Shown: one piece after another, positions 405 to 54,081 of the stretch
Layout of the letters: each line of letters starts with the position of its first letter
How positions within the stretch are numbered: the stretch's first letter is position 1
Assembly (NCBI GenBank): GCA_043228905.1
Contig: JBHGNT010000015.1
Location: forward strand, 5,270,001 to 5,334,000
DNA from: Azolla caroliniana
Taxonomy: Eukaryota > Plantae > Polypodiophyta
Direction of reading: 5' to 3'
DNA: 64,000 nucleotides
Position numbers and translations under genes: made by a program
Notes under the pieces: model-generated
What the model saw: the letters and a program-made list of their open reading frames with translations, nothing else
Database searches by the model: none
Told to the model about the DNA's origin: nothing

Positions 405-1064
405 CATAGATTGACACATGCGTGATATTCATGATATTCTTCATGCGCAATATTCTCAATATTCGAGAATACGAAATGGCCCCAAGAATATTAAAAAACC
501 ATTCGTTTTGCAAAATAAATATAAAATATTTATTTATTTATTTAAATAAATTTATTTCACCAAAAAAAGAACAATTATTCATTAATAGATTATAGTGTCA
601 AGAGAGTTTATAAAACTTATTTTAATTAATCAATTAATTAATTACTTTTTAAAAAACGAATATTTTTATATTTATTATACAAATATGATTAATATAAACT
701 TTGATGATATGATTAGTTTGAAGTAGTATTTTTAATGTTAAAATAAAAATATACATAAATTTTGAGGGAATAAAAAGTGAGAAATTAATGAGCCTTTATT
801 TTATTTTATTTGTTTATTAAAAATAAAACGAATACTTATAACTTATAAGTTATACATTTATTATAAAAATTTAGTACTATCAAATCCCCAAGTCCCTCTT
901 TTATTATCCCTATTTATTGTCAAGTTCCTTTTTTTTATCCTAGAAATTAAAAAAGATAGAGTTTTTATTTTTTTGAGTTAAACGAATACTTGACCACCCA
1001 TTCATATTCGTATTCGTTTGCATTTAAATGGGAAACCCGACGAATGCGAATATGTCAATCTATG
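405..1064. mobile_element. Non-autonomous hAT-type MITE (copy 1, complete)
   Basis: TIR CATAGATTGACA (405-416) / TGTCAATCTATG (1053-1064); 8-bp TSD CTTGTAAT at 397-404 and 1065-1072; AT-rich non-coding interior. Confidence 0.9.
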
Positions 1065-37363: not shown

Positions 37364-38062
37364 TGTCGCGTTGTTACGCGCGCTTGCGTGTAGAACGAGG
37401 CGGGACCACCGGGGCCTTGGACCAAGAAATAGCTGAGAAGGAGGGGAACGTAAACGCAACAGACGCACTTGCACGCACACGGACGCGGGGCACACAGGAA
37501 TCACAGTGCATCAACACAGCAAAACGAGACGACTAGAAGTCTGGGTATATGAACACCTATGTATATTAATTTGTATGTGTATATCAAGACGGTTACAACT
37601 AACAGGCTGGCAAGGCGAACGCCGACACCTGTTTACTCACACGTAGAAGAGTGAGATGGAGACTCTACCAGAAGCACACGGGCGTTCCACGAAGCAGAGT
37701 CAGCCTCCCGAAAACTTGCGCCTAGCGAATATAAAGAAAGAAGGAGGAGAAGAGCTCGGTCCCAGTCCGACAACACTTCGTCCTCCACAAAAAAAAAACC
37801 GATCCCCCCTTTCATTCCTCTCCCTCTCTTTTATAGCCCAAGGAGGGAGGCTGTTATCATTCGTTATATCATATTAATTCTCTGTCCTTTCGGACAGAGA
37901 TACACCTCGATTCTCTCCCTATTGAATGCGTGCTACCTAGGATTTCACCTCAGCCGACTTGTACCTACCTACTTACTATACAACGAAAGTGTGCTCACAT
38001 GTAAGGGCCGGTTTACACACGCTAAATTCGGTTTCCGCCTAGGGACGGTTTTCTTCACGACA
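37364..38062 (-). repeat. 3' LTR of Gypsy C
   Basis: Repeat of 53384-54081; TGTCG...CGACA. Confidence 0.93.
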
Positions 38063-38921
38063 TCCGCCCCCACCTAACCGCGCATCCACCGGTATGCGCC
38101 AAAATTGGGCTCTTGCCGGAGAAAACCGGTCCACGCTTTACTCCTCGCCTTTCGGATCGTCATCCGCCTCGGACCGTCCGTCGTCGCCGTCCATGATTTC
38201 CAGATCCGGCTCACACTCGTGTCGTTTCTTAAATGCTTTGACCCTCTTCCCCGCTACTGGTATTGCCATCCTCGTACCGTCGAACTCCGTACGATGGTAG
38301 GTCCCGTTGTCGTTGGCGCCTGTCACCGCGTAAGGCCCGAACAACCTCCTTGCAAACTTTCGCTGTCGTGCCTTTCGGCTCCGGATCGTTTCGTGAGTCG
38401 GGTGGAAACCGCTGGGGTTTTGGACTAGGAAGAGGAGAGTTTTAAGGCTAATAAGAATATAAATATGTTGTAAGAAAGAGTTATAGCAAACTCGTGAATC
38501 CCACGAGTGTATTGTATTTGATTAATCAATATGAATATAAGAATATAAATTTGGGTTGAAAGAGAATGATATAGAATCCTCGTGAATCCCACGAGTATAG
38601 TTTATTAATTGGTGTTTTTTAGAAACATATCCAGTTTCCAAGTATTTCACACACAATTACATTGTGCTCCCCATCCTTATGTAGTGATGAGGAAGTCTTA
38701 GTAATCCATGCTTTTTCTCTAACTATAGACCCCATGCTTTTCCTATAGATAGACTATATGCTTTATCTAAAGTGATCATGCTTTTTTCTAACTTGTGCGA
38801 TTTTTATCATGCACGCTAGATGTGTATGTGTAGCTTTTTCTTTTGTTATGCGTTTTTCTAATGTTTATCCTAGCGTGAATTTACCTTTCTATGTGGGACA
38901 TCTATGCTTTAACACTAATGA

Positions 38922-39010
38922 AATGCTAGTGTAATGGTAAGACATTACATTATTAACATGGAGGTGCAAGGTTCGAATCTTGCCCTATGCATGTTCCATT
39001 TATTTTGCTA
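38922..39010 (+). ncRNA. tRNA-like Pol III cassette (A box, B box, T-run) in the element D 3' LTR
   Basis: A box TAGTGTAATGG 38927-38937; B box GGTTCGAATC 38970-38979 in hairpin GCAAG..CTTGC; TTTT runs downstream. Confidence 0.55.
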
Positions 39011-39090
39011 TTTTCTTCTATTTCTTCATTTTTTATTGAATCTAATACTATATACGTTTTTCACGTAGTGTACAAAATACACTACGACAC

Positions 39091-41112
39091 TCACCCCCTC
39101 CAAACCCGCACATCCTCCGGTATGTGCCGAAGTTGTTGGTGTTTGTTAGTCTCCTCCGTCCGGTCTCTACCCGATTGGTTTCGTTGCCGGCTCGTAGTAC
39201 CCTCGACTTCTCTTGTTATGTTGACTTTGTCTCTCCATTTGGAGCACATCCATTCTTTCCACCCGAACCATTGTCGACATCCGATCCACCATAGTCTTCG
39301 TTCGCTTTTTGCATGGCCCGCTTGGTCCTTGTCATCCGCGGTAGTATCTTTTCTTGCCCTCTTTCTTTTCTTCATCAATCTCGACTTCTTTTCGGATTTT
39401 CGGCTTAGTCGGATTAGCTTACTTCCGATTCGGTCTCGTCGGATCGTCTTTCGTTTAGTTCGGCTTCCTTTCCGATTTGTATTCGGTCGATCCGGACTCG
39501 GTCGATCGGTTTTTACCGATTCAGTGCTCTTTCGGGTCGGTTTCTTTTCTTTTCTTTTCGTCCGGATTTGCTTTCTTTTCTTCGTTTTCACCTGCCTTGT
39601 CCGGTTCGACTTTCGGCACTTCTTTCCGTTGTTCGCCACGTAGGTCCTCCGATATGTGCTCGTTGTTCGGTCCTCGTGTGGTTGTAATGCATGCTTCTTT
39701 TCTCGCCGTAGCGCGTGCTTCTTTATTCGCCATAACACGCGTTTCTTTATTCGCCGTAGAGCGTGCTCTGTATTACGCGCTTCTCCCGTCGTAGACCCGA
39801 CCTCCGCATTGTCGCACTTTCTTTTAGATTGGAATTTCGGATGGATCATTTTCCATCCGAACCGACTTCCGACTTTACCTTCCTCGCCGCCATCTCCCGT
39901 CTCTCCAGTCTCACGTTGGTTCTCGGACACAACCGCCGAAGTCTCTAGATATTGTTGGCATGAATCCTCGGTATTACCTTCTTTCGTAGTTTCACCCTTA
40001 GCATTCTTCTCGGCTATCTCTTCATCGTATTCGTCGGCTTCGACATTCGTTTTCTCTCCGCCACCTTCCGTCTCTTCGGTCTCACGTTGCCTTTCGATCG
40101 CAACCGCCGGAGTCTCTGGAATCAGTGGTGGGGAAGTCTCGATATGGCAATCCGCCATTGATTCGTCCATAGCCACCTCCGATTCGATTTCGTCTTTTAT
40201 GGCTACCTCCTTAATCACATCCGCTTCACACTCTTTATCTGCATCAATTATGCAAACATCTATTATGCTTACCCCTTTTTGACCCGATGTCTCGGGCACT
40301 TGTATCCCGAAATTTCCTTCTACACTTGAATTATCGGCCTTATCCTTCGCCATCGTTCTTTCACAAGACGAGTGGGTGTCTTGTTCCACTCTTTCTCCCG
40401 TGGTACCATCATGTTGTATTTCGGCCTTCATATTGGCTTCATCGTTTTTCCTCAATCGACCATCCTTCATGGGCCATGTCGTTGTTGACGAGATTCTCAG
40501 CTTCCTTTCATCATGTCTTCGGCATACCCTTTCGACTTTAGCCCAATCCTCGGTAAGACCATTCGCACCGTCATCGTCTTCGAGTTCAATCCCGATGTCC
40601 TTCCTTTCTTTCCGATCAATCGATCTTACGAACATTAGGACTTTATCCTCTCCCACCAATCGTTGTTCCCGCTCCGAGAGTCGAGCAAAACGATGCTCGA
40701 ACTCTAGGAATGCTTGTGTTGCACTTCGGTGGGTCTTCTCCGATGCCACCCATTCATCGAACTCTCGCCGATCTCGTCCCTTCGGTCTATCGTAATCATA
40801 TGCCTCTCGTAAAGCTTCTTCGAATGACCCCCATGTCGAGTTTTGTTGCCGTATCTTGTGGATTCTCTCTTGTAGCTCATCCGTGGCCACCCGATTGAAG
40901 GATGTCACTTGCAATCCTTCCGGTATCCCACATCGTATCATCTCCGCCTTGTAGTCACGTAGATAGCATGACACATCATTTCCGTTGAATTGTCCGTTTC
41001 GTTGTACGAGCCGCTTTACTACCGCCGTGATCTCCGACATCGCTTGTTGTTCTTGTAGCATCCGTTCGAACATCATCATCATCATGTTCATCGCCTCTTG
41101 TTGATTCTCCAT
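39091..41112 (-). CDS. Gag-like protein with long acidic then basic C-terminal extension (~673 aa from first ATG)
   Basis: Uninterrupted ORF; N-terminus aligns by eye with Gypsy C gag (F.G.D...YL..Y.AEM...IPE; VL.FV..D; DGLT.DWA.V.RVC). Confidence 0.85.
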   Translation of the reverse strand: MENQQEAMNMMMMMFERMLQEQQAMSEITAVVKRLVQRNGQFNGNDVSCYLRDYKAEMIRCGIPEGLQVTSFNRVATDELQERIHKIRQQNSTWGSFEEALREAYDYDRPKGRDRREFDEWVASEKTHRSATQAFLEFEHRFARLSEREQRLVGEDKVLMFVRSIDRKERKDIGIELEDDDGANGLTEDWAKVERVCRRHDERKLRISSTTTWPMKDGRLRKNDEANMKAEIQHDGTTGERVEQDTHSSCERTMAKDKADNSSVEGNFGIQVPETSGQKGVSIIDVCIIDADKECEADVIKEVAIKDEIESEVAMDESMADCHIETSPPLIPETPAVAIERQRETEETEGGGEKTNVEADEYDEEIAEKNAKGETTKEGNTEDSCQQYLETSAVVSENQRETGETGDGGEEGKVGSRFGWKMIHPKFQSKRKCDNAEVGSTTGEARNTEHALRRIKKRVLWRIKKHALRREKKHALQPHEDRTTSTYRRTYVANNGKKCRKSNRTRQVKTKKRKQIRTKRKEKKPTRKSTESVKTDRPSPDRPNTNRKGSRTKRKTIRRDRIGSKLIRLSRKSEKKSRLMKKRKRARKDTTADDKDQAGHAKSERRLWWIGCRQWFGWKEWMCSKWRDKVNITREVEGTTSRQRNQSGRDRTEETNKHQQLRHIPEDVRVWRG

Positions 41113-41128
41113 CTCCTTGCCACCCGCC

Positions 41129-41146
41129 TTCACGTCGGGTTCACCA
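41129..41146 (-). promoter_or_regulatory. PBS complementary to tRNA-Trp
   Basis: Plus strand reads TTCACGTCGGGTTCACCA, matching from memory the 3' 18 nt of plant cytosolic tRNA-Trp. Confidence 0.85.
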
Positions 41147-41708
41147 ACTGTGTCGTGCCTTTCGGCTCCGGATCGTTTCGTGAGTCGGGTGGAAACCGCT
41201 GGGGTTTTGGACTAGGAAGAGGAGAGTTTTAAGGCTAATAAGAATATAAATATGTTGTAAGAAAGAGTTATAGCAAACTCGTGAATCCCACGAGTGTATT
41301 GTATTTGATTAATCAATATGAATATAAGAATATAAATTTGGGTTGAAAGAGAATGATATAGAATCCTCGTGAATCCCACGAGTATAGTTTATTAATTGGT
41401 GTTTTTTAGAAACATATCCAGTTTCCAAGTATTTCACACACAATTACATTGTGCTCCCCATCCTTATGTAGTGATGAGGAAGTCTTAGTAATCCATGCTT
41501 TTTCTCTAACTATAGACCCCATGCTTTTCCTATAGATAGACTATATGCTTTATCTAAAGTGATCATGCTTTTTTCTAACTTGTGCGATTTTTATCATGCA
41601 CGCTAGATGTGTATGTGTAGCTTTTTCTTTTGTTATGCGTTTTTCTAATGTTTATCCTAGCGTGAATTTACCTTTCTATGTGGGACATCTATGCTTTAAC
41701 ACTAATGA

Positions 41709-41797
41709 AATGCTAGTGTAATGGTAAGACATTACATTATTAACATGGAGGTGCAAGGTTCGAATCTTGCCCTATGCATGTTCCATTTATTTTGCTA
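41709..41797 (+). ncRNA. Second copy of the tRNA-like Pol III cassette (element D 5' LTR)
   Basis: Same sequence as 38922-39010. Confidence 0.55.
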
Positions 41798-41880
41798 TTT
41801 TCTTCTATTTCTTCATTTTTTATTGAATCTAATACTATATACGTTTTTCACGTAGTGTACAAAATACACTACGACATCGC

Positions 41881-44763
41881 GTTGCCCTGTGTTGGTTGTC
41901 GAGGCTGCTGTCATACACTAGGACCCAGTCGCCTTCCTCGATTTTCTTCGGTCGCAGTCAGTGAGTCCGGTCAAATCTCCCTTTGTTCTTGAACCTTGCC
42001 AACCGAAGCTTCTCCGCGGGTCTTTCCACGTCCTCCGGTCTCCGCTCGAGTTGTCGAATCCGTGCCGCCAGCAGCTCCTCTCGGCTCATCTCATCTCTCC
42101 AGTCCATCGTGGCCCATGAGGAGATCGTTCGCTCCGTCGGCATGATCAGCTTTTGTCTGTACATATGCTCTGCCGGCATGAACCCGGTTAACGAACTGTG
42201 CGTAGTTCGGTCCGCCCATAAGGCATAAGGTAGCAGTCGTGACCAGTTCCCGACTTGGCCCCAGCACGCCCGTACTAGCGCTTTGACTATTGGCCCATGT
42301 CCGCGCTCCACCTTCACATTAGCCTCCGGATTGTACGCTGTGGTGAGCGAGAGTTTGACCCCTAGCCGGTCAAACAACTCTTCGGCCTCTTGCGCGTCCA
42401 ACTCTCCGCGGTCAGCCACGATCTTCCCTACGCTCCCGTACCGACATATCACGTCCTCGAATAGGAACCAGCACACATCCGCGGTCGTTTTGTTCTGCAG
42501 TGCTCGGCCTTAAACCTGGTTCGTCAGATCCTCCCGAGCCAGCACCAGATACCGCATCTGTCCTACCCCCATCGGCATTGTCACCAAATCCACCATCCAT
42601 TTGAAGTGGGTGGTCGGCGGGTAAGTTGGGTGGAGCTCGTCCCAGTGTCGGACTATGGAGTGCATTTGACAGCTTTCGCAAGTTTTCATGAACCGATGCA
42701 CGTCCCGGTACAGTCCCGGCCACCAATACTTTCCCTTTAGCTTCTCAAACGTGGCCCATGTCCCACGGTGTTTGGCCCAGGGACTCTCGTGGTATGCCGA
42801 CAATAACTCTTCTTGCTCCTCTTTCTTTGCCACCACTCGAAGCGGGACGCCGTCCCTTTTCTTCGGGTGCTTCCATATGTACCCGTCTCGTAGGAAGAAT
42901 CGATACGCTTTCTTCCGGATCCTGTTGGTCTCTTCCTTCGTCCACACCGCGTCCGGTATCATTGTTCTTAGGAACTCGCCGATCTGGAGCCACTCCCCGT
43001 CATAATTGCTCTCGTCGAAGTCGTTAAGCGCCGGAGTGCTTCCCTTTCCGGTTGTTACATAAGCCGCCTCGAAGAAGTCTACGTCGACTTCCTCGTCCTC
43101 TTAAACCATGTCGTCCTTGTTTTCAAACCTTGCTCTTGAGAGCATGTCGGCCATGGCGTTGTCTTTTCCAGAAATGTGTCGTATCTCCGGATTCAGGGAC
43201 TTGATGTATGCTATCCACCTGAGCATCGCCAGGTCCGGTGTCGCGCATCCGGAAACCATGCCGTCTCGATTATTACCTTTGTCCTGATCAGGTAGTCTTT
43301 ATCGGCCTTCACCGCCGAAACGATACCCCAGAGTTCGCGTTTAACCTGGGCGTATCCTTGTTGTCGCTCACTGAGGACCTTCGCGCCGAACTGGATGGGG
43401 AACCTCGTGCCAACGTCATCCTCTTGGTTAATCACCCATCCGATCCTGGTCAGGCTCGTATCTACGGTTACGTAAATCGGAGTGTCTCTACCGTAGACAA
43501 CCTTTCAGAGCGTCGGTGCCGTGGAAAGTGCTTCCTTCATCTTTCGGACTAATTCCATATGCTCGTCTCCCCATTCGAATTTACGCCCTTTCTTCAGCAA
43601 CCCATACAGTGGTTGCGCGATGTGGGCGTAATGCAGGATCTAGATATGCTAGAACGCGCATGCTCCCAAGAACCTCCGAACCTCCGTAACCGAATTGCAA
43701 TCATGCTTCATCGCGGAGATGGCTTCCACCTTGGCCGGAGACGGTTTCCTACTGTACGGCCCGCATAGGTGTCCGACAACCATGATCTTTGATTGCCTGA
43801 AGGCCGATTTTTCCCCGGAGAAGGTGAGCCTCGCGCCTTCTAGTCTCTGCAACACCTTCTCGCAATCATCGATGTGAGTCGCCACGAAATTCCGGCATCC
43901 ATCCGGTCCGATTGTCTTGTCCCTTTCCTCCAACAGGCATCCCCTGATCGAGATGTCGTCTAAGAATGGCATGGTGATGTTCACCATGTGAGCCACCGAG
44001 TTCGTCCCTCCTTGCGGTAGGGTACACATCCGCACTAGGCCGAGAGGAGTCCGCATCGTCGTAATGTCCCTGCTCTCCATGGCTAGTTGAAACTGATCGT
44101 ACCCTGAGTACAGATCACCGATAGAGTAAATCGACCTTCCGACGAAGGCCTCCGCGAACTCGTCTATGGTCGGTCCGATTCCTGTATTCCGAATGGTCAC
44201 CTTGTTGATCGGCTGCAGGTCTTGAATAAAGCGCAGCATGCCGTTCTTCTTTGGCACCGTAAACCACCGATTCGAATACGGGGCACTCGACGGTTCGAGG
44301 ATGCCCATCTCCACCTTTTGCTGCAGGAGCTCCATCAACTTTGGGATGTGAGCTCTCGGCACCGGTTTCGGCTTGAGATTCCACGGTACATGCGGTACCG
44401 TGAAGATCACCATCGGTTCGACAATTGTCGGGTCTACGCACCCGATCTCCTCTAGTGAGAATGTGAAAGCCTTCCTGTGCCTCCCGAGCATTCTCCGAAA
44501 CCGGTCCTCCTCCGGCAGTAGAAATCCGCCCCCACCGACCTTGAGCTCCCGTAGCGTTATGTCGGTGAATCGGTGCCCTATGCCAGCCGGGTTCCGTAAA
44601 CTTGGGTCCGACGCGACCCCTTTTATCCGCTCTTTGCTGCCCTCCGGCAAGGGTGCCGCGACTGACCTCACCTTCCGGTCCACAGTCTTGTACTTTGTAT
44701 CCACGCGGGCCATTCGACCCGATCCAATCCTTTCCCCGAAGTCCGCGATGACTTCGTATATTC
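41881..44763 (-). pseudogene. Gypsy C pol (RT-RH-IN), degenerate
   Basis: LRFIQDLQPIN, DLYSGYDQF, LPQGGTNS, FLDD; integrase ADRGE, YNPEAN.KVERGH; tail at 38138-38363. Confidence 0.88.
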
Positions 44764-44817
44764 TGTTGGGAGATAGGTCCCTCCGGATGGGAAGGGAGAT
44801 AGGCCGAGGCCGAAACC

Positions 44818-45028
44818 GTATGAGGAGTACCCGGCTATGGAGAGCCGGATGATGCAGACCCGGTGAGAACCGGATGAGTACCCGGCTACAGAGAGCCGGA
44901 TGGTGCAGACCCGGTGAGAACCGGATGAGGAGTACCCGGCTTCGGAGAGCCGGATGGTGCAGACCCGGCGAGGACCGGATGAGGAGTACCCGGCTACGGA
45001 GAGCCGGATGGTGCAGACCCGGTGAGGA
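44818..45028 (+). repeat. 54-bp tandem repeat in Copia E U3 (4 units here, 5 in LTR2, 3 in LTR3)
   Basis: Unit CGGATGAGGAGTACCCGGCTACGGAGAGCCGGATGGTGCAGACCCGGYGAGRAC. Confidence 0.9.
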
Positions 45029-45527
45029 ATGCTCACCGGATGAAGAGACATATTCGTAAATATGTTTCTGAGAGTCCATCGAGGCTATATTTGTAAATAG
45101 CCGAAAAGTCATATTAGTATAAATATGACTTAGGGCAAACTTTTAATTACTGTTGTTGTTGTTATTCTTGTTGGTGCAAGAATAGAGTGAGCGCGTAACA
45201 GTGTACACAGAGAGAGAGAGAGAGCAAGAGGTCGTTGCCTCTGTTGTAACCGCCGCCTGTGGCGAGGATCGTGAGCACGAGGTCGTTGCCTCCGTGAACT
45301 CACTGTTGTACATACTCACATAGTGATAGTTTGCAGCCTGTGGGTTGCCGTGGTTTTTCCCTCTTTGGGTTTTCCACGTAAACATCCCGTGTACTGTTCT
45401 CCTCTTTGTGTCGTGCTTTCATTTCCGGTTTTCTGTGCATGAATCTAAGCTTGGTTGCGGCCGAGCATTGCGTACAGGGGAGCGTACTGTTCTTGACAAG
45501 TGGTATCAGAGAGAAACGACACAGAAA

Positions 45528-48500
45528 ATGGACGAATCGTTTGGCGGCATGTTCAAACTCACCGGCTCCAACTATTCAGTGTGGAAGTCGAAGATGAGGG
45601 ACATGCTCATGGTTAAAGACCTCTGGTTGCCGGTTCAAATCGGGGACAAGAGACCGGACAAAATCAACGTCGCGATATGGGAGGTGATGCACATGAAGAC
45701 AACGACGTACATACGTTGCTTCATCGACATGAGCCTGTACAACAACTTCAATGAAGAGAGCAAGGCTCATGAGCTCTGGGAGAAGATCGGCATAATGTTT
45801 CAGAACAAAAATGTTGTTAATCAGGTTTCGGTATTCCGGAAGTTAGTAAGACTCCGGTACCAAGATGGCTCCAGCATGGCGAAGCACATGAATGCCTTCC
45901 AGGGGCTGATCCACCAGGCAACTTCATTGGAAGTACCTCTCGCCGATGAGGTACTAGCGCTACTCCTGCTCGGTTCCCTCCCGGATAGCTGGGAGACGTT
46001 GGTTGTCACTTTGGGCAACGCCGGGCCGGAAGGAAAACGGTTATCCCTAGCAAGAGTGAAGTCGAGCTTGCTAGATGAGAAGGCGCGTCGGAAAGATAAG
46101 GATACGAACTCTGACTCCAAAGCGCTCCTTACCGAATCGGAACGCGGAAGACATAGAAACCGTAGTCCCCAGAACCGGGAGAAGTCGGGGACACGGTCAA
46201 AGTCAAGGGGGAGGCCTACTTGCTTCTATTGCGGCAAGCCGGGACACTTCCAGAAGAACTGTCGGCACTTCCGTAAAGACAAGGAAACCGACGGCACCGA
46301 TTCAAAGCGGACACCGGACCGGAACGGTAAAGACCGCAGCGGACCGGACCGGAAGGGAATGACAGCAATCGCGGCAAGTGAAGAGGAGTTGATGCTCATC
46401 ATCGAGGAGAGTGAGATAAACCTTGCCGGCAACGAGATGACCTGGGTGGTAGACTCCGGAGCGTCATTCCACCTTACCCCGGACCGGAAATGCTTCTCAT
46501 CCTACTCAGCCGGTGATCACGGCTGTGTCCGGATGGGGAATGAAGGTACATGCCGAATTGTCGGCATAGGAGATGTGTGGTTGTCGACACCAACCGGATG
46601 CAAGTTGCTGCTGCGGGATGTCCGACACGTTCCGGAGGTTCGACTCAACCTGATATCAGCCGGTCGGCTAGATGATGAGGGCTACACGGGTAGCATCCGG
46701 AACGGTGTCATGAAGTTCAGCAAAGGGAGCCTGATTGTGGCTCGGGCCCGGAAGGTAAACACATTGTACCTGATGAATGCCCGGTTATGCCCGGAAGAAG
46801 TGAACGTGGCATCCAACACTACCGGTGAGCTATGGCACAAGAGGCTGTGTCATATGAGCGAGAAGGGGATGAAGAGGCTTGCAGACGACAACCTCATTCC
46901 AGTGAAGAACGTGCACTTAGAGAAGTGCACTGATTGTCTGGCCGGTAAGCAGAACCGGACCTCCTTCCGACCAAGGTCACCGATGACACGTAATGCACCA
47001 CTGGAGTTGGTGCATACGGATGTGTGTCAAGTAGACACGAAGTGACATGCCGGAGCGCAGTACTTCGTGACGTTCATAGATGACCACAGCCGGAATCTGT
47101 GGGCCACACCGTTGAAGACGAAGGATCAGGTGTTATCTGTCTTCAAAGAGCTCCACGCGAGAGTGGAAAGAGAAACCGGCCGGAAGTTGAAGGTGGTTCG
47201 AGCAGATAACGGAGGAGAATACCGGGGGTAGTTCGGGGAATACTGCCGCTCGAAGGGAATCCGGCTCGAATTTACCGTGCCGAAGACGCCGGAACTAAAC
47301 GGACTGGCCGAGAGGATGAACTGGACGATAATGGAGAGGGTCCGGAGTATGCTAGCGCATGCAAAACTACCCAAGAAGTTTTGGGTTGAGGCACTGTCAA
47401 CGGCCACATATGTGATAAATAGATCACCCTCAGTACCCTTGGACGGAGACACGCCACAGAGAGTGTGGACCGGTAAGGAAGTATCCTACCGGCATCTGAA
47501 GGTGTTCGGGTGTCTCGCGTACGTGCATGTAGCTAAGGACCGGAGAGGAAAGTTAGATCCAAAGACCCGGCCATGCATATTCCTCGGTTACAGTGACGAC
47601 GAGTTGGTCGACAAGAAGGTATTCCGGAGTCGAGATATTATCTTCATGGAGAACAAGACGCTCGCCGACTCAGAGTCGGAGAAGAAGATAATGAACTCCG
47701 AGTCGACCGGTAAGGATCGACTCTACGATGAGCAGACCCAACCGCCAAGAGACCGGTTAGCACTCGAGGGACCAGACGGTTACGGTGAGGATACCGAACG
47801 GGCTGAAGAAGAAGTAGAGGAAGCTAAAACCGGAACCGGCCAAGACCCCGAATCGGATTCGGATGAAGAGCAGATGGATGAGCCGGTCACCGAAGCCCAG
47901 AGACGGAGATATCCTCTCAGAGAGAGAAGGGCCCCCCGGAGATTTCCGGATGCAGAGCATGTTCTGCTGACTGATGAGGGGGAGCCGGAAAGCTTCGAAG
48001 AGGCGAAGGAAGACACCCACAGCCGAAAATGGTTAAGTGCCATGCAGGATGAGATGGATTCCCTGCATGAGAACCATACGTATGAATTGGTGGAGTTGCC
48101 GAAACGAAAGCGGGCACTCCGAAACAAGTGGGTGTACAAGTTGAAACCGGGAGCTGTCGGCAACCCCCCGAGAAACAAAGCCAGGATCGTGGTGAAGGGG
48201 TTCCAGCAGAAGAAGGGCGTGGACTTCGACGAGATATTTTCCCCGGTAGTAAAGATGACCTCCATCCGGACAGTGCTGAGTATAGCGGCAAGCATGGACC
48301 TCGAGGTAGAGCAGCTAGACGTGAAAACGGCATTCCTTCACGGTGATCTCGTAGAAGAGATCTACATGCAGCAAACGGAAGGATTCGTGGAGAAAGGGAA
48401 GGAGCACCTGGTTTGCCGGTTGAAGAAGAGGCTCTACGGGTTAAAGCAGGCCCCCCGGCAATGGTACCGGAAGTTCGACTCCTTCATGACCGATCAAGGG

Positions 48501-49553
48501 TACCACAAGACGCAAGCCGATCACTGCGTGTTTGTGAAGAAGTTTGAAGGAGGTGACTTCCTGATACTCCTTCTGTACGTGGACGACATGTTGATCGTCG
48601 GACGGGACCAAGTCAAAATACGGATGCTGAAGAAGGCTCTCAACCGGACCTTCTCAATGAAAGACTTGGGTCCGGCAAGACAGATGATGGGGATGCACAT
48701 CATTCGGGACCGGTCAGCGAAGCAATTATGGCTATCACAGGAGAAGTACGTGACAAAGGTGCTTCACCGGTTCAACATGTCAGATGCGAAACCGGTCGGA
48801 TCGACACTTCCGGCAAACTGCAAGCTATCCGGTAAGCAAAGCCAGAAGACGAAAGCAGAGAAGGCGGATATGATGAAGATTCCATATGCCTCTGCCGTCG
48901 GGAGCTTGATGTACGCAATGGTTTGTACCCGACCGGACATAGGATACGCAGTCGGAGTGGTGAGCCTGTTTATGAGCAATCCCGGCAAGGAGCACTGGAA
49001 CACAGTCAAATGGATACTCCGGTATTTGAAGGGCACTTCAAATATGTGTCTCCGATTCGGCTCCGAAAAACCTCAACTTGACGGTTTCACCGATTCGGAC
49101 ATGTCGGCTGATGTGGATACCAGCCGGTCTACATCCGGGTATGTAATGACATATGTAGGGGGAGCTGTTTCGTGGCAGTCGAGGCTGCAGAAGACGGTTG
49201 GATTGTCAACCACAGAGGCGGAGTACATGGCAGCTGTGGAAGCCGGCAAGGAAATATTATGGATGAAGGACTTCATCAGAGAGCTCAGTATCCGGCAAGA
49301 TGAATATCGACTTTATTGTGACAGTCAAAGTGCAATCCATCTTGCTAAGAATGCGGCCTACCATTCCTGGACGAAGCATATCCAGCGAAGATATCACTGG
49401 ATCCGGGAAAGAGTAGATGACCAGGAGTTCGCACTGACGAAGATCCACACGGCCGAGAACGGGTCAGATATGCTGACCAAAGTGCTAATACCCGACAAGC
49501 TAGATGCATGCCGAAAGAGGATCGGACTAGTAAGACACCCCATGCCGGAGTGA
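45528..49553 (+). pseudogene. Copia E gag-pol, one frame with two premature stops (~47043, ~47229)
   Basis: CFYCGKPGHFQKNC, WVVDSGASFH, LWHKRLCH, QLDVKTAFLHG, YVDDML, TKHIQRRYHWIR. Confidence 0.93.
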
Positions 49554-49973
49554 AGGGGGAGTTTGTTGGGAGACAGGTCCCTTCGGATGGGAAGGGACAT
49601 AGGCTGAGGCCAAAACCGTATGAGGAGTACCCGGCTACGAAGAGCCGGATGATGCAGACCCAGTGAGAACCGGATGAGGAGTACCCGGCTACAGAGAGCC
49701 GGATGATGCAGACCCGGTGAGAACCAGATGAGGATTACCCGGCTTCGGAGAGCCGGATGGTGCAAACCTGGCGAGGACCGGATGAGGAGTACCCGGCTAC
49801 GGAGAGCCGGATGGTGGAGACCCGGCGAGGACCGGATGAGGAGTACCCGGCTACAGAGAGCCGGATGGTGCAGACCCGGTGAGGAATGCTCACCGGATGA
49901 AGAGACATATTCGTAAATATGTTTCTGAGAGTCCATCGAGACTATATTTGTAAATAGCCGAAAAGTCATATTA

Positions 49974-50266
49974 CCTGTGCCTCCCGAGCATTCTCCGAAA
50001 CCGGTCCTCCTCCTCCGGCAGTAGAAATCCGCCCCCACCGACCTTGAGCTCCCGTAGCGTTATGTCGGTGAACCGGTGCCCTATGCCAGCCGGGTTCCGT
50101 AAACTTGGGTCCGACGCGACCCCTTTTATCTGCTCCTTGCTGCCCTCCGGCAAGGGTGTCGCGACTGACCTCACCTTCCGGTCCACAGTCTTGTACTTTG
50201 TATCCATGCGGGCCGTCCGACCCGACCCAATCCTTTCCCCGAAGTCCGCGATGAGTTCGTATATTC
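49974..50266 (-). repeat. Diverged duplicate of the Gypsy C segment 44474-44763
   Basis: Aligns by eye with several substitutions and a 3-bp indel. Confidence 0.9.
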
Positions 50267-50956
50267 TGTTGGGAGATAGGTCCCTCTGGATGGGAAGGGA
50301 GATAGGCCGAGGCCGAAACCGTATGAGGAGTACCCGGCTACGGAGAGCCGGATGATGCAGACCCGGTGAGAACCGGATGAGGAGTACCCGGCTTCGGAGA
50401 GCCGGATGGTGCAGACCCGGCGAGGACCGGATGAGGAGTACCCGGCTACGGAAGAGCCGGATGGTGCAGACCCGGTGAGGAATGCTCACCGGATGAAGAG
50501 ACATATTCGTAAATATGTTTTTGAGAGTCCATCGAGGCTATATTTGTAAATAGCCGAAAAGTCATATTAGTATAAATATGACTTAGGGCAAACTTTTAAT
50601 TACTGTTGTTGTTGTTATTCTTGTTGGTGCAAGAATAGAGTGAGCGCTTAACAGTGTACACAGAGAGAGAGAGAGAGCAAGAGGTCGTTGCCTCTGTTGT
50701 AACCGCCGCCTGTGGTGAGGATCGTGAGCACGAGGTCATTGCCTCCGTGAACTCACTGTTGTACATACTAACATAGTGATAGTTTGCAACCTGTGGGCTT
50801 CCGTGGTTTTTCCCTCTTTGGGTTTTCCACGTAAACATCCCGTGTACTCTTCTCCTCTTTGTGTCGTGCTTTCATTTCCGGTTTTCTATGCATGAATCTA
50901 AGCTTGGTTGCGGCCAAGCATTGCGTATAGGGGAGCGTACAGTTCTCGACATATTC

Positions 50957-53360
50957 CCATCAAACTAACCGGCACGGTCTGGTGTTCTCTAAGGTCTTCA
51001 TTGATCACCTTTCGTAACTCGCCCAAGGTGTCGTCAAAAGAGACCGCCTCCACGGCGCCGTTGATTTCTTCGTCGGGGGAGAGGACTCCGCATCCCCTGA
51101 GCCGCTACTCCGCCCTCTTCCTTTCCTGGCCGCTTACACCAGTTATAGTACAACCCCCACTGTCGGAGAACCAAAATTTCCTCCCTATGGTACAGGTCTT
51201 CTTCCCTACTGTACACTTGTGGGGTTTTTCCGGGGTGTCCGGACTATCGCGGCCCCACACGTTGATAGCTGTCTCTAAAAATCCCCTCAGGTTTCGCCTC
51301 CGAGGGTCTCGCGGTTACGCTCATGGTTCGGTCGCACCGTCAGGAACTGGACCGAGTGACGCCCGTCCTGGCTCTTGACTCTTGCATAGGCCGAACCGTT
51401 GTCCTGCACCTTGGTCTCCATCCGTGCCGCCGTGATGTATGGTTCTCCTAGTATAACCAGATGTGAGGACGTCCCTTGCACGAAGAAGTGTTGGTCGATC
51501 TTGATATCACCAATTTTCACCCGTACATTTGTGCAGGCTCCATGTAGTTCTTCCGTGGCGCGCGTTGTTGCCCGTATTTTCCAGCCATGTTTGGTGTTGA
51601 TCGGCCATTTTCCCCCTTTGTAGAAGTCCATGGACATCAAGTTGATTTCTGAACCGTGGTCCACCAACGCCACCACCGGCTCCTGGACATCCCCGATCTT
51701 AATAGGGGTCTCTGTGGTCGCTCTGGCCCAGTGCGGCCTCGAATAGTGGCTCTCCGCCAACTCGTCTTCTAGCGCCATGTCCTCTATGTGCGTCGTTCGC
51801 ACTTCCACCGGCTTCTCCAGGTCTAGCCCTGTCGACAGCCTCTTCCTCTTCACCAAGTCTACGATGGAGTCGTGGAACTCCTTCTTGGCGATCCCAAGCA
51901 CCTACCTCAGCGACAGCTCCACTTTGCTGTCGAGGATAGGTTCCTCCAGGACCTTTCGCAGATCCGTGGTCCTTTCGATTTCCATGCTCAACCGGTACCC
52001 GGCCTTCTTGGCTTTATCTGGTGCGCCGGTCGCACGGGCCTCATTCTACCGTTGACCAAATCGGGTCTCGTACCGTTGCGAGGGCCCAGCACCTTTGGTT
52101 TTACCTACTCGCTTGTCTTCCACCAGAGCCTCGTAGTTCTGGCATGCAGCTTCAACGAAGCCCGTCTTCTCTTCGACCGGGTCACTCCACCCGGTTAGCT
52201 CCCGGACCCGTTTTTCCACGCGGTCCACTTCTTCTTTCCTTAACCGTGCGCCGGCAAGGCCTTCCAGCATCAGCGGCCAGAATCCGGCTTCGTCCGTCTT
52301 CCGGGCCTCACCACCTCCGACCCGGATCCCTGCCGACGCCGAGTAGTGGACGGTCTCCGCGTGGCAAGCCGCCGCTTCTTCCATCAGCCGTTTCATACCC
52401 CCTCGTCCGACATTCAGGTTCAGGGCCCTTCGGGTCTTGCTAGCGTGCACCCGACCGTTCCATAGGTACACCACGTTGGCTCTCATTGCCTCGGCGAAGT
52501 CCCCGCAGTCCCTCCGGACGTGGCCGACCGCGTCGCACCACAAACACTAGTTTCCAGCTAGAGGCCTTCGATCACGGGCCTGTTCGCTGCCGTCCCTCCG
52601 TGCTTGTGCAATTTGGAGGTCCTTTACCATCCCAGTCAGCTCCTCTAGAGCTGCTCCTCCGCTCGAGCCTCTGACCATGCCGGTCGAAGTCGATCTGGTC
52701 TCGAGCCAGTCTCGGGTCACTTCCTTTATCGACCCACTCTCGCCGTTTGTCAAAACGGCCACAAACTCTCTTCACTACGGCCCAGTCGGCCGTCAGCCCG
52801 TCATCAGTCTCCAGCAGGAGACCCACCTGCTCTCGGTTCCTCGCATCCACCAACTTAACGAACAACAGGACGCGGCTCGTGTCTAGTACGGTCCGGTCGA
52901 GTGCCGAAAGACGCGCGAAGCGTTCTTCAAACTCCCGGAGGAGCACTGACGCGTTTCTCCCCTTTTCGGGGGTCTCTACCCATTCCATGAAATCCCGTTT
53001 CGAGAGCCGAAGCGCGTCATCAAGCCCGTCTTTTTCGAGGAGCCGACCTTCAAACTCTTCCCAGGTCCGGCTCTCAGCCCGTACCTCGAGCACCTTCGCA
53101 TGGATGCCCGATATTGCCACTCGCGGGAAACCGGTCAGTCGCCTCTCTTCCGGAATGTCTCTCATTACCATCTCGGCCCAGTAGGCCTCCAAATAGCTCG
53201 TAGCGTCCTTCCCACCGAACCGGCCTATCGTGCTGACAACCGCTTCAATGGCCCTATCGAGGGTGTCTGCACCTTCGCGCGCACTCACTATCCGATCCAC
53301 AGCCGAAGCCATGGCTTCTGCGAGATCCGACCCCTTCATCTTTCTATTCCTCTGCCGCAT
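50957..53360 (-). pseudogene. Gypsy C gag-protease and start of pol, degenerate
   Basis: C.WCD..GH.RRDC knuckle, ALVDHGSEINLM protease. Confidence 0.87.
51218..51284 (-). promoter_or_regulatory. Putative -1 ribosomal frameshift signal (Gypsy C)
   Basis: GGATTTT-TAG, then stems GCTATC/GATAGT and TGTGGGG/CCCCACA. Confidence 0.7.
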
Positions 53361-53383
53361 GTTCACGCCGGGTTCACCAAATA

Positions 53384-54081
53384 TGTCGCGTTGTTACGTG
53401 CGCGTGCGTGTAGAAAGAGGCGGGACCACCGGGGCCTTGGACCGAGAAATAGCTGAGAAGGAGGGGAACGGGAAGGCAACAGACGCACTTGCACGCACAC
53501 GGACGCGGGGCACACAGGAATCACAGTGCATCAACACAGCAAAACGAGACGACTAGAAGTCTGAGTATATGAACACGTATGTATATTAATTTGTATGTGT
53601 ATATCAAGACGGTTACAACTAACAGGCCGGCAAGGCGAACGTCGACGCCTGTTCACTCACACGTAGAAGAGCGAGATGGAGACTCTGCCGGAAGCACACG
53701 GGCAACCCACGAAGCAGAGTCAGCCTCCCGAAAACCTGCACCCAGCGAATATAGAGAAAGAAGGAGGAGAAGAGCTCGGTCCCAGTCTGACAGCACTTCG
53801 TCCTCCACAAAAAAAAACCGATCCCCCCTTTCATTCCTCTCCCTCTCTTTTATTGCCCAAGGAGGGAGGCCGTTATCATTTGTTACATCATATTAATTCT
53901 TTGTCCTTTCGGACAGAGATACACCTCGATTCTCTCCCTATTGAATGCGTGCTACCGAGGATTTCACCTCAGCCGACTTGTACCTACCTACTTACTATAC
54001 AACGAAAGTGTGCTCACGTGTAAGGGGCGGTTTACACACGCTAAATTCGGTTTCCGCCTAGGGACGGTTTTCTTCACGACA
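53384..54081 (-). repeat. 5' LTR of Gypsy C
   Basis: Repeat of 37364-38062; adjacent to the Trp PBS. Confidence 0.93.

What the first reader, a model, noticed from the sequence alone, without database searches (positions are those of the whole stretch)
38922..39010. tRNA-like Pol III promoter cassette built into both LTRs of element D
Seen: A box TAGTGTAATGG and B box GGTTCGAATC start 43 nt apart (tRNA-like spacing), with a T-arm-like hairpin and T-run terminators. The cassette lies in U3, antisense to gag, and is repeated at 41709-41797. Known: Cassandra TRIMs carry 5S-derived Pol III promoters in their LTRs, and TFIIIC-bound B boxes can act as chromatin barriers. Inference: a tRNA-type analogue that could make a small antisense RNA or shield the LTR promoter inside heterochromatin. 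It could also be a captured SINE.
Basis: partly seen in the sequence, partly recalled or inferred. Interest (0 to 1): 0.8.

Follow-up and report, generated by a model that had tools for sequence, protein, structure and literature searches.

The report
Conserved backwards tRNA promoter in LTRs
A group of plant jumping genes, including fully coding members, keeps a worn tRNA gene facing backwards near the outer end of each terminal repeat; its two promoter boxes stay conserved while the DNA around them has diverged, so it likely recruits the tRNA transcription machinery and would help shield the element's own promoter from silencing.

Summary
Both identical 726-bp LTRs of a young, gag-only, Phygy-like Gypsy element carry a tRNA-type A box and B box 43 nt apart in U3, antisense to the element. 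It is not a tRNA: there is no cloverleaf and Rfam gives 13.4 bits.

Among 27 U3 regions of gag-anchored relatives, 14 carry the same antisense cassette, including elements with open gag-pol frames. One is partial and 11 lack it. One carries a different, tRNA-iMet-like cassette in the sense direction.

Against relatives with 56-61% gag identity, box sites are 93% identical, the spacer 29-47%, and the flanks near shuffled level. No RNA covariation was found.

Best reading (0.45): a selected TFIIIC/Pol III site that likely protects the LTR's Pol II promoter. Binding and transcription are untested.

Against: 26-28% of laid depth has lost the B-box C56, non-box bases are equally conserved, and many lineages lack the cassette.

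tRNA-derived LTR sequences are known (Helenus, short non-coding elements). An antisense one conserved in autonomous plant elements was not found in my searches. The scan noted similar cassettes in other genomes (e1-9852194, e1-10420520).

The parts
38364..41876 (-). Element D: 3513-bp non-autonomous Phygy-like Ty3/gypsy element, nested in another gypsy element
   Evidence: Identical LTRs, TSD, PBS, PPT, one ORF without RT or integrase; host element LTRs 37364-38062 and 53384-54081
38364..39089 (-). 3' LTR, 726 bp (TG...CA)
41151..41876 (-). 5' LTR, 726 bp, 0 mismatches to the 3' LTR
38360..38363 (.). Left target-site duplication TCGC (NCGN type)
   Evidence: the right copy is 41877-41880
41877..41880 (.). 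Right target-site duplication TCGC
41129..41146 (-). Primer-binding site, complementary to a CCA-ending tRNA 3' end (Trp by recall; Phygy use Trp in 81% of cases)
   Evidence: shared by most gag-anchored loci
39090..39106 (-). Polypurine tract next to the 3' LTR
39091..41112 (-). 673-aa ORF; the N-terminal ~215 aa are gag-like (52-56% to proteins including two with DUF4100); no Pfam hit, no RT or integrase
38927..38983 (+). tRNA-derived cassette in U3 of the 3' LTR (tRNA positions 8-63), antisense to the element
38927..38937 (+). A box
   Evidence: 7 of 7 informative positions
38970..38980 (+). B box (CpG at 38974-38975)
   Evidence: (9 of 10 positions)
39003..39006 (+). First T4 run, candidate Pol III terminator, 12 nt after the tRNA position-73 equivalent
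41714..41793 (+). Same cassette and T4 run in the 5' LTR (A box 41714, B box 41757)
38675..38684 (-). TATA-like motif, inferred Pol II promoter of the LTR (5' LTR copy 41462-41471), about 240 nt inward of the A box and pointing away from the cassette
   Evidence: motif match with 2 mismatches to a recalled plant-LTR TATA motif; local depth peak at 38664-38688
39064..39086 (.). Hairpin at the U3 terminus

Best explanation
The cassette is a tRNA-like A box/B box pair that is conserved across diverged LTR families and likely acts on the DNA as a TFIIIC/Pol III site that would keep the outer U3 region open and shield the LTR's Pol II promoter from heterochromatin. Shown: the anatomy, the antisense orientation, the presence in elements with open gag-pol frames, the conservation of boxes and spacing against a diverged spacer and flanks, and the loss of the cloverleaf. 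Inferred: origin from a tRNA gene or SINE head captured once in an ancestral LTR and then copied by normal LTR regeneration; purifying selection on source elements; binding of TFIIIC, which would place TFIIIB between the cassette and the TATA-like motif; at most a short (about 90-nt) antisense RNA ending at the T-run. The barrier role is the least secure step. It rests on position (between flanking host DNA and the promoter in the 5' LTR), on a second cassette of opposite orientation in a sister lineage, and on known TFIIIC barrier activity in yeast and mammals.
For: (1) 14 of 27 true U3 segments carry the antisense cassette, with the A box 136-267 nt from the LTR end. (2) It occurs in L019 and L006, which have open gag (712, 702 aa) and pol (1241, 1168+ aa; RT, RNase H, integrase) frames. 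(3) Window versus L023, L017 and L006: gag 56-61% aa identity, four-fold sites 0.41-0.49 (37-40 sites), 15 box sites chosen from the tRNA consensus 0.93, spacer 0.29-0.47, flanks 0.58-0.62 against shuffled 0.53-0.59. (4) The A-to-B distance is identical in 15 of 16 distinct copies and one base longer in one. (5) The cloverleaf is not kept (47.6% of cells paired, no better than slid controls). The T-arm-side hairpin pairs in 78.9% of cells but shows no covariation beyond shuffles (63 of 500 reach the score), which favours a DNA motif over an RNA structure. (6) In 4 DNA runs labelled as 3 organisms, summed contig depth peaks on the cassette (X1: 498,629 at 38964-38988 against 69,625 at 38889-38913 and 30,869 at 39014-39038), and none of the 40 listed substitutions falls in 38927-38995 (86 rows not shown). 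(7) All 7 young or high-coverage sequences keep B-box C56; two changed G57 to A, which the consensus allows. (8) L021/L024 (tandem copies with integrase and protease hits) carry a different cassette in the same U3 zone in the sense direction: score 16 of 17, 5 of 3000 shuffles, T6 four bases downstream, aligning to the tRNA-Met of L033 with z 9.1. (9) TFIIIC-bound tRNA genes and ETC sites are heterochromatin barriers (PMC12409998, passages).
Against: No binding or transcript data. B-box C56-to-T reaches 28% (X1) and 26% (X14) of laid depth, twice the tolerated G57-to-A (13% in both). This fits CpG decay in old copies but could equally be a successful box-dead subfamily. Only 3 of 9 low-coverage copies keep C56, and the contrast with high-coverage contigs is expected anyway because collapsed contigs average out decay. 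Non-box bases (TAAG, TGGAGGT) are as conserved as the boxes, and the 5' half of the A box is not (G10 column identity 0.36). No CAA motif in 16 of 16 copies. The T-run at +12 holds for 7 of 16 copies and is not fixed in the L012/L014/L026 group. 11 of 27 U3s lack any cassette, including a pol-encoding family (L016/L018) and the high-coverage L069, so it is dispensable for the superfamily. Distribution on the gag tree is patchy (three clades), so U3 swapping has probably occurred and gag divergence may overstate the cassette's age. The pairs are not independent. The sense cassette rests on one family (2 near-identical contigs) found among about 13 LTRs screened.
Confidence: 0.45

Rival explanations
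1. The sequence is under selection but not through Pol III: it serves as a Pol II enhancer or transcription-factor site in U3, or as a hairpin in the 3' end of the genomic RNA (packaging, strand transfer, or pairing with a tRNA, as proposed for the tRNA-like stretch of HIV-1 U3).
For: Non-box bases are equally conserved. The T-arm-side helix pairs in 78.9% of cells against 35-50% for whole-structure slid controls, and the element-sense strand also folds well (z -4.0). L061 and L066 keep the flanking ACGTGGAGGT motif and a stem while the loop has changed. In genomic RNA the cassette is anti-tRNA, as in HIV-1 (PMC9757044, one discussion passage and reference titles).
Against: No covariation beyond shuffles. 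The cassette's T-stem and acceptor 3' strand do not match the primer tRNA end read from the element's own PBS. Conservation includes the A-box GG and the exact A-B distance across a diverged spacer, which a hairpin does not need. A sense-oriented cassette exists in a sister family.
Confidence: 0.2
2. The functional product is a short Pol III antisense RNA of about 90 nt, which pairs with the U3 of the genomic RNA to limit the element's own activity or is cut into small RNAs, as in the foamy-virus U3 cassettes.
For: A complete A-B-T4 unit is present. A T-run at the same +12 offset follows a variable 8-nt stretch in most group A copies (T fraction 0.73-0.91; identity 0.72 against 0.42). The window copy folds as a two-hairpin dumbbell. 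Precedent in SFV U3 (PMC3993851, passages).
Against: The first hairpin is not conserved (consensus fold has 4 pairs). The spacer sequence is free. The T-run is not fixed in group B, and the strand is T-rich throughout. The sense cassette of L021 would make a different RNA.
Confidence: 0.15
3. A passenger: a tRNA pseudogene or SINE head was inserted into one LTR and spread among families by recent U3 recombination, with no function.
For: Patchy distribution on the gag tree and many successful lineages without it. Heavy C56 loss. L028 has a U3 deletion that removes the region. An earlier scan note reached this verdict for a similar backwards relic in another genome (e1-9852194; not tested here).
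Against: Within the 57-nt cassette itself the spacer is near saturation (0.29-0.47) while box sites are 0.93; recent transfer would keep both alike. A hypermutable CpG is retained or changed only to the tolerated base in 7 of 7 young or high-coverage sequences.
Confidence: 0.17
4. A Cassandra- or Helenus-type promoter that transcribes the element's genomic RNA by Pol III.
For: A tRNA-derived sequence with conserved boxes in both LTRs of an element lacking RT.
Against: The cassette is antisense, points outward and meets T4 within 25 nt of the B box. The element is 3.5 kb with a 673-aa ORF, and pol-encoding relatives carry the same cassette. Even the sense cassette of L021 is followed at once by T6.
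Confidence: 0.03

Closest known systems
Helenus / TRIMp3 (Kojima 2024, PMC10886601; read parts 1-4 of 6 of the text, the figure legends and tables, and two supplement passages)
   Same: tRNA-derived sequence inside LTRs, conserved around boxes A and B, not a functional tRNA, canonical PBS and PPT; proposed origin by SINE or tRNA insertion into an LTR.
   Different: Helenus are non-coding TRIMs of 311-1263 bp. The LTR sequences visible in the supplement passages carry the tRNA in the sense direction, and the paper expects autonomous partners not to share long LTR sequence. Here the LTRs are 480-840 bp, the cassette is antisense in U3, and carriers include a 3.5-kb gag-only element and gag-pol elements. 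The paper's only plant family is in Selaginella (120-bp LTR, 5-bp TSD). It mentions that 'not a few' Repbase LTRs contain tRNA-like sequence but analysed only TRIMs.
Cassandra (PMC7215508, passages; also described in PMC10886601)
   Same: Pol III promoter sequence from a small-RNA gene in the LTRs of plant elements.
   Different: 5S-derived (type 1 promoter), a TRIM, and it drives the element's own RNA.
Phygy clade of non-chromovirus Ty3/gypsy (Neumann et al. 2019, PMC6317226; passages and one supplement table row)
   Same: 4-bp NCGN TSD, tRNA-Trp-type PBS, polyprotein filling the internal region in the autonomous relatives.
   Different: Described from Physcomitrella patens at 7.7-10 kb; no LTR tRNA cassette is mentioned in the passages seen. 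RT phylogeny against the reference set was not run.
Foamy-virus U3 Pol III miRNA cassettes (PMC3993851, passages; PMC7693620, listing and abstract start)
   Same: Pol III units inside U3 of an autonomous retroelement; the window copy folds as two hairpins.
   Different: Those make demonstrated miRNAs from hairpin precursors. Here the hairpins are not conserved, the unit is tRNA-shaped and antisense, and no RNA is shown.
tRNA-Lys3-like stretch in HIV-1 U3-R (seen only as a passage and reference titles in PMC9757044)
   Same: tRNA-related sequence in U3, near the 3' end of the genomic RNA.
   Different: It is proposed to pair with the element's own primer tRNA. The cassette here does not match the primer tRNA end read from the PBS.
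tDNA and ETC (TFIIIC) heterochromatin barriers (PMC12409998, passages)
   Same: The proposed mode of action.
   Different: Shown in yeasts and mammals at host loci. The passages read give no plant or retrotransposon-borne case.

Membership tests
Helenus / TRIMp3 | tRNA-derived sequence in the LTRs with conserved A and B boxes | tested here: met
Helenus / TRIMp3 | Short (up to about 1.3 kb), non-coding TRIM | tested here: not met
   3513 bp with a 673-aa ORF; relatives with gag-pol
Helenus / TRIMp3 | Promoter oriented to transcribe the element | tested here: not met
   Antisense in 14 of 14 full matches; Helenus examples seen are sense
Type-2 (tRNA-type) Pol III promoter | A box and B box at tRNA spacing | tested here: met
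   16 of 17 informative positions, 43 nt, 3 of 3000 shuffles
Type-2 (tRNA-type) Pol III promoter | Downstream poly(T) terminator | tested here: inconclusive
   T4 at +12 in 7 of 16 copies, within +19 in 12 of 16, but the strand is T-rich
Type-2 (tRNA-type) Pol III promoter | Upstream CAA and AT-rich/TATA-like region (weaker outside angiosperms; PMC13578239, passages) | tested here: inconclusive
   CAA in 0 of 16; AT fraction 0.56-0.94 on an AT-rich background
Type-2 (tRNA-type) Pol III promoter | TFIIIC/Pol III binding and transcription | not testable with these tools
   No ChIP or stranded RNA data available
Functional tRNA gene | Cloverleaf with acceptor and anticodon stems; Rfam or ARAGORN call | tested here: not met
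tRNA-derived SINE | Free-standing copies with body, tail and own TSD | tested here: inconclusive
   All profile hits in 79 gag-anchored loci and the window have LTR-like context. Loose ends in DNA runs are LTR-like and about 1% runs on unlike sequence. The loci are biased to gag neighbours and no genome was held.
Phygy (Ty3/gypsy non-chromovirus) | 4-bp NCGN target-site duplication | tested here: met
   TCGC; 11 of 16 flanks of relatives are NCGN; reference
Phygy (Ty3/gypsy non-chromovirus) | tRNA-Trp PBS | tested here: inconclusive
   CCA-ending PBS present and shared; its naming as Trp is recalled, no tRNA-Trp gene was held for comparison
Phygy (Ty3/gypsy non-chromovirus) | RT/RH/INT phylogenetic placement in the Phygy clade | not tested
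   Reference sequences not on hand; element D has no RT
Foamy-virus-type Pol III dumbbell pri-miRNA | Conserved double hairpin yielding small RNAs | tested here: not met
   Double hairpin only in the window copy; not in the alignment consensus

The most novel reading that the evidence does not exclude
Autonomous plant Gypsy lineages have repeatedly captured tRNA genes, in either orientation, as portable TFIIIC/Pol III chromatin barriers at the outer edge of U3, a cis-acting anti-silencing device that lets them stay active when nested in heterochromatin.
Probability: 0.33. Interest if true: 0.82.

Novelty: new variant of a known kind. Interest (0 to 1): 0.62.

Why it matters
Known small-RNA-derived LTR promoters (Cassandra, Helenus, Ajax) are read as engines for short non-coding parasites. 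A tRNA promoter kept backwards in long, Pol II-type LTRs of coding elements cannot do that job, so it needs another explanation. If it is a TFIIIC barrier, it would show how retrotransposons can stay active in nests of silenced repeats without encoding an anti-silencing protein. It would also give a natural, high-copy test system for tDNA insulation in plants, for which the review passages I read list only yeast and animal evidence. Sister lineages with and without the cassette, and old copies that have lost C56, supply built-in controls.

Tried and rejected
No whole genome was held, so no genome-wide SINE search or copy-by-copy rate test was possible.

ARAGORN on the window and Rfam on 5.5 kb gave nothing. 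The L021 cassette gave no tRNA hit in Rfam at E up to 10.

Viral contigs: 0 matches to a cassette pattern and no gag relative.

Expression: no RNA holder was listed. Two runs only guessed to be RNA gave 5 and 1 low-depth contigs that run from the cassette into LTR flanks. This is uninformative either way.

B-box array in L001 (six near-matches) first looked like a replacement for the cassette. It was rejected: that stretch is the U5 end of a reverse-oriented element, not L001's U3. L001 and the doubtful L008 segment were therefore dropped from the 29 segments scored, leaving 27.

HIV-like pairing with the primer tRNA: the cassette's 3' part does not match the PBS-derived tRNA end. The full tRNA was not available.

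Isotype of origin for the antisense cassette is not identified: z 3.9-4.8 against the tRNA-Met of L033 (generic box similarity) and -0.6 to 2.6 against the tRNA-Phe of L007.

Landing-pad idea (lead from e1-10420520): only one insertion touches a cassette (L039, inside the spacer), so there is no support.

The 31-column 'core' identity is circular and is not used.

Rows left out: the 16-row alignment omits hits under 45 bits (L066 twice, L039) and identical duplicates. The gag tree used 45 rows (matches of 95 aa or more from labelled loci), not all 79 loci. L034 was left out of the downstream T analysis.

Literature searches for a prior description (text search of PMC11656987) returned Helenus/Ajax and Cassandra only. 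Subscription papers and Repbase entries are not covered, bioRxiv supplements were closed, and I saw only two passages of the Helenus supplement.

Full report
WHAT IS THERE. The finding lies in a window packed with nested retroelements. Element D spans 38364-41876 on the - strand. It has two 726-bp LTRs with no mismatch, a 4-bp TSD TCGC, a CCA-type PBS four bases from the 5' LTR, a PPT next to the 3' LTR, and one 673-aa ORF. The ORF has no Pfam hit, but its first ~215 residues are 52-56% identical to proteins that include two DUF4100-bearing ones and match the gag of a neighbouring gypsy element. RT and integrase are absent, so D is a young non-autonomous element. A 4-bp NCGN TSD and a Trp-type PBS are the marks of the Phygy clade (PMC6317226); 11 of 16 flanks of relatives are NCGN. 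The host is therefore likely a non-seed plant. This is inference; earlier scan notes say fern, which I did not test.

THE OBSERVATION. The A box (38927) and B box (38970) are there, 43 nt apart, antisense to the element and 110-163 nt inside the U3 end, about 240 nt outward of a TATA-like motif. Chance is unlikely: 11 of 5000 and 3 of 3000 shuffles under two scoring schemes. The Rfam tRNA model aligns positions 8-63 with one insertion but at only 13.4 bits, ARAGORN finds nothing, and the sequence folds as two hairpins. It is a tRNA relic, not a tRNA.

RELATIVES. A gag-anchored scan, independent of the cassette, gave 79 loci (103 matches, best 80 kept). They come from one series of assemblies and probably one host. 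An iterated profile found the cassette in LTRs whose other parts barely align. I scored 29 LTR segments and dropped two that are not true U3 ends (L001, shown to be the U5 end of a reversed element; L008, doubtful start). Of the 27 left, 14 carry the antisense cassette, 1 a partial one (L066), 1 a different sense cassette (L021), and 11 none, including the host element in the window. Carriers include L019 and L006, with open gag and pol frames holding RT, RNase H and integrase. On a gag tree of 45 rows the carriers fall in three clades, interleaved with non-carriers, so gain, loss or U3 exchange has occurred. Near-identical LTR sequence is held by DNA runs labelled as at least three organisms.

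CONSERVATION. In 16 distinct copies, column identity is 0.77 over the B box, 0.76 over the variable loop and 5' T-stem, 0.62 over the A box (0.88 at A14, G18, G19; 0.36 at G10), 0.53 over the anticodon-arm region and 0.37-0.43 in ungapped flanks. The A-B distance is the same in 15 of 16. Between the window copy and L023, L017 and L006 (gag 56-61%, four-fold sites 0.41-0.49), 15 box sites fixed in advance from the tRNA consensus are 0.93 identical. The spacer is 0.29-0.47 and aligned flanks are 0.58-0.62 against shuffled 0.53-0.59. These pairs are not independent and gag and U3 may have recombined. The contrast inside the cassette does not depend on the gag yardstick. Laying four DNA runs on the LTR shows a depth peak on the cassette comparable to that at the LTR end, with none of the 40 listed substitutions inside 38927-38995 (86 rows hidden; depth is not copy number). 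The cloverleaf is not conserved, and the extended T-arm hairpin shows no covariation beyond shuffles.

RESULTS AGAINST. At the B-box CpG, C56-to-T makes up 26-28% of laid depth and the tolerated G57-to-A 13%. All 7 young or high-coverage sequences keep C56, against 3 of 9 low-coverage ones (the coverage split was chosen after seeing the data). That fits decay after insertion but does not exclude a thriving box-dead subfamily. Transcription-associated C-to-T change on the non-template strand (recalled; PMC6130373 seen only as a listing) could also explain the skew, but one site cannot show it. Non-box bases are as conserved as the boxes. CAA is absent in 16 of 16. The T-run sits at +12 in 7 of 16 and is not fixed in the second subgroup. 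Abundant and pol-encoding lineages without a cassette exist (L069; L016/L018).

A SECOND CAPTURE. L021/L024 carry, 141 nt inside U3, an A/B pair in the sense direction (16 of 17; 5 of 3000 shuffles) followed by T6, with the LTR's T-run bias also flipped (9 sense against 4 antisense). It aligns nearly ungapped to a real tRNA-Met from L033 (z 9.1, 0 of 2000 shuffles; initiator type by recall), much better than to the window cassette (z 3.8). This suggests an independent capture in the same zone and an orientation-independent role. It is one family, and Rfam did not call it.

HOW IT LIKELY WORKS. An antisense unit that meets a T-run within 25 nt of its B box cannot make genomic RNA. What is conserved is what TFIIIC reads: two boxes at fixed distance (PMC13578239, passages). 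I therefore favour a DNA-level role (0.45). TFIIIC, and probably TFIIIB and Pol III, would occupy the outer U3, which in the 5' LTR lies between host heterochromatin and the Pol II promoter, acting as barrier or chromatin opener as tDNAs and ETC sites do in yeast and mammals (PMC12409998, passages). Rivals: a non-Pol III enhancer or RNA hairpin (0.20), a passenger spread by recombination (0.17), a functional antisense small RNA (0.15), and a TRIMp3-type genomic promoter (0.03). Binding, transcription and barrier activity are all untested.

COMPARISON AND NOVELTY. tRNA-derived LTR sequences are published as Helenus (PMC10886601), so the idea is not new. D fails Helenus membership on size, coding capacity and orientation. 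Pol III units in U3 are known from foamy viruses, and a tRNA-like U3 stretch from HIV-1; neither mechanism is supported here. Searches found no description of an antisense tRNA cassette conserved in autonomous plant gypsy LTRs; Kojima notes unanalysed tRNA-like hits in non-TRIM LTRs. The scan's own notes hold similar anatomies in other genomes (e1-9852194, e1-10420520) and none for this sequence. Verdict: new variant of a known kind, interest 0.62.

Noticed in passing
L021:1819-1873 (+), and L024: A second, tRNA-Met(i)-like A/B cassette in U3, in the sense direction, with T6 right behind it, in a sister family with integrase and protease hits.
   Followed up: partly
window 39064-39086 and the first 45 nt of most related LTRs: A hairpin at the very start of U3 is kept across families with different stem sequences, next to the PPT; it may serve plus-strand priming or integration. 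Covariation not counted.
   Followed up: no
window 38451-38518 and 38537-38606: A duplicated ~70-nt unit in the R region, each with a palindromic hairpin (CTCGTG...CACGAG), also seen in relatives.
   Followed up: no
L033:744-815 and 1046-1117; insertion at 1342: A tandem array of tRNA-Met genes (about 300-nt period) with a Phygy-like element inserted in it; the flank of L025 resembles the sequence just downstream of these genes. Possible tRNA-adjacent targeting, or only the NCGN preference.
   Followed up: no
L061:~540-590 (-) and L066:751-804 (+): Relics that keep the ACGTGGAGGT motif and a stem but have a different loop in place of the B box.
   Followed up: partly
L001:500-710: An array of ~17-nt repeats with B-box-like cores (2 exact, 6 within one mismatch) in the R/U5 part of a reverse-oriented related element.
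   Followed up: partly
L012, L021, L024, L026, L053, L069: Tandem LTR-internal-LTR-internal arrangements sharing one LTR; L026 has two different LTR variants around one internal region (recombinant or assembly chimera).
   Followed up: no
window 39091-40400 (-): The C-terminal part of D's ORF is an acidic stretch followed by a very basic (K/R-rich) one, unrelated to protease or RT, and kept open in several relatives (P0001, P0010); possibly a new nucleic-acid-binding or decoy domain.
   Followed up: no
window 37364-54081: The host gypsy element holds both D (in its 3' internal region) and a Copia element (44474-50951); it is itself flanked by other nested elements.
   Followed up: no
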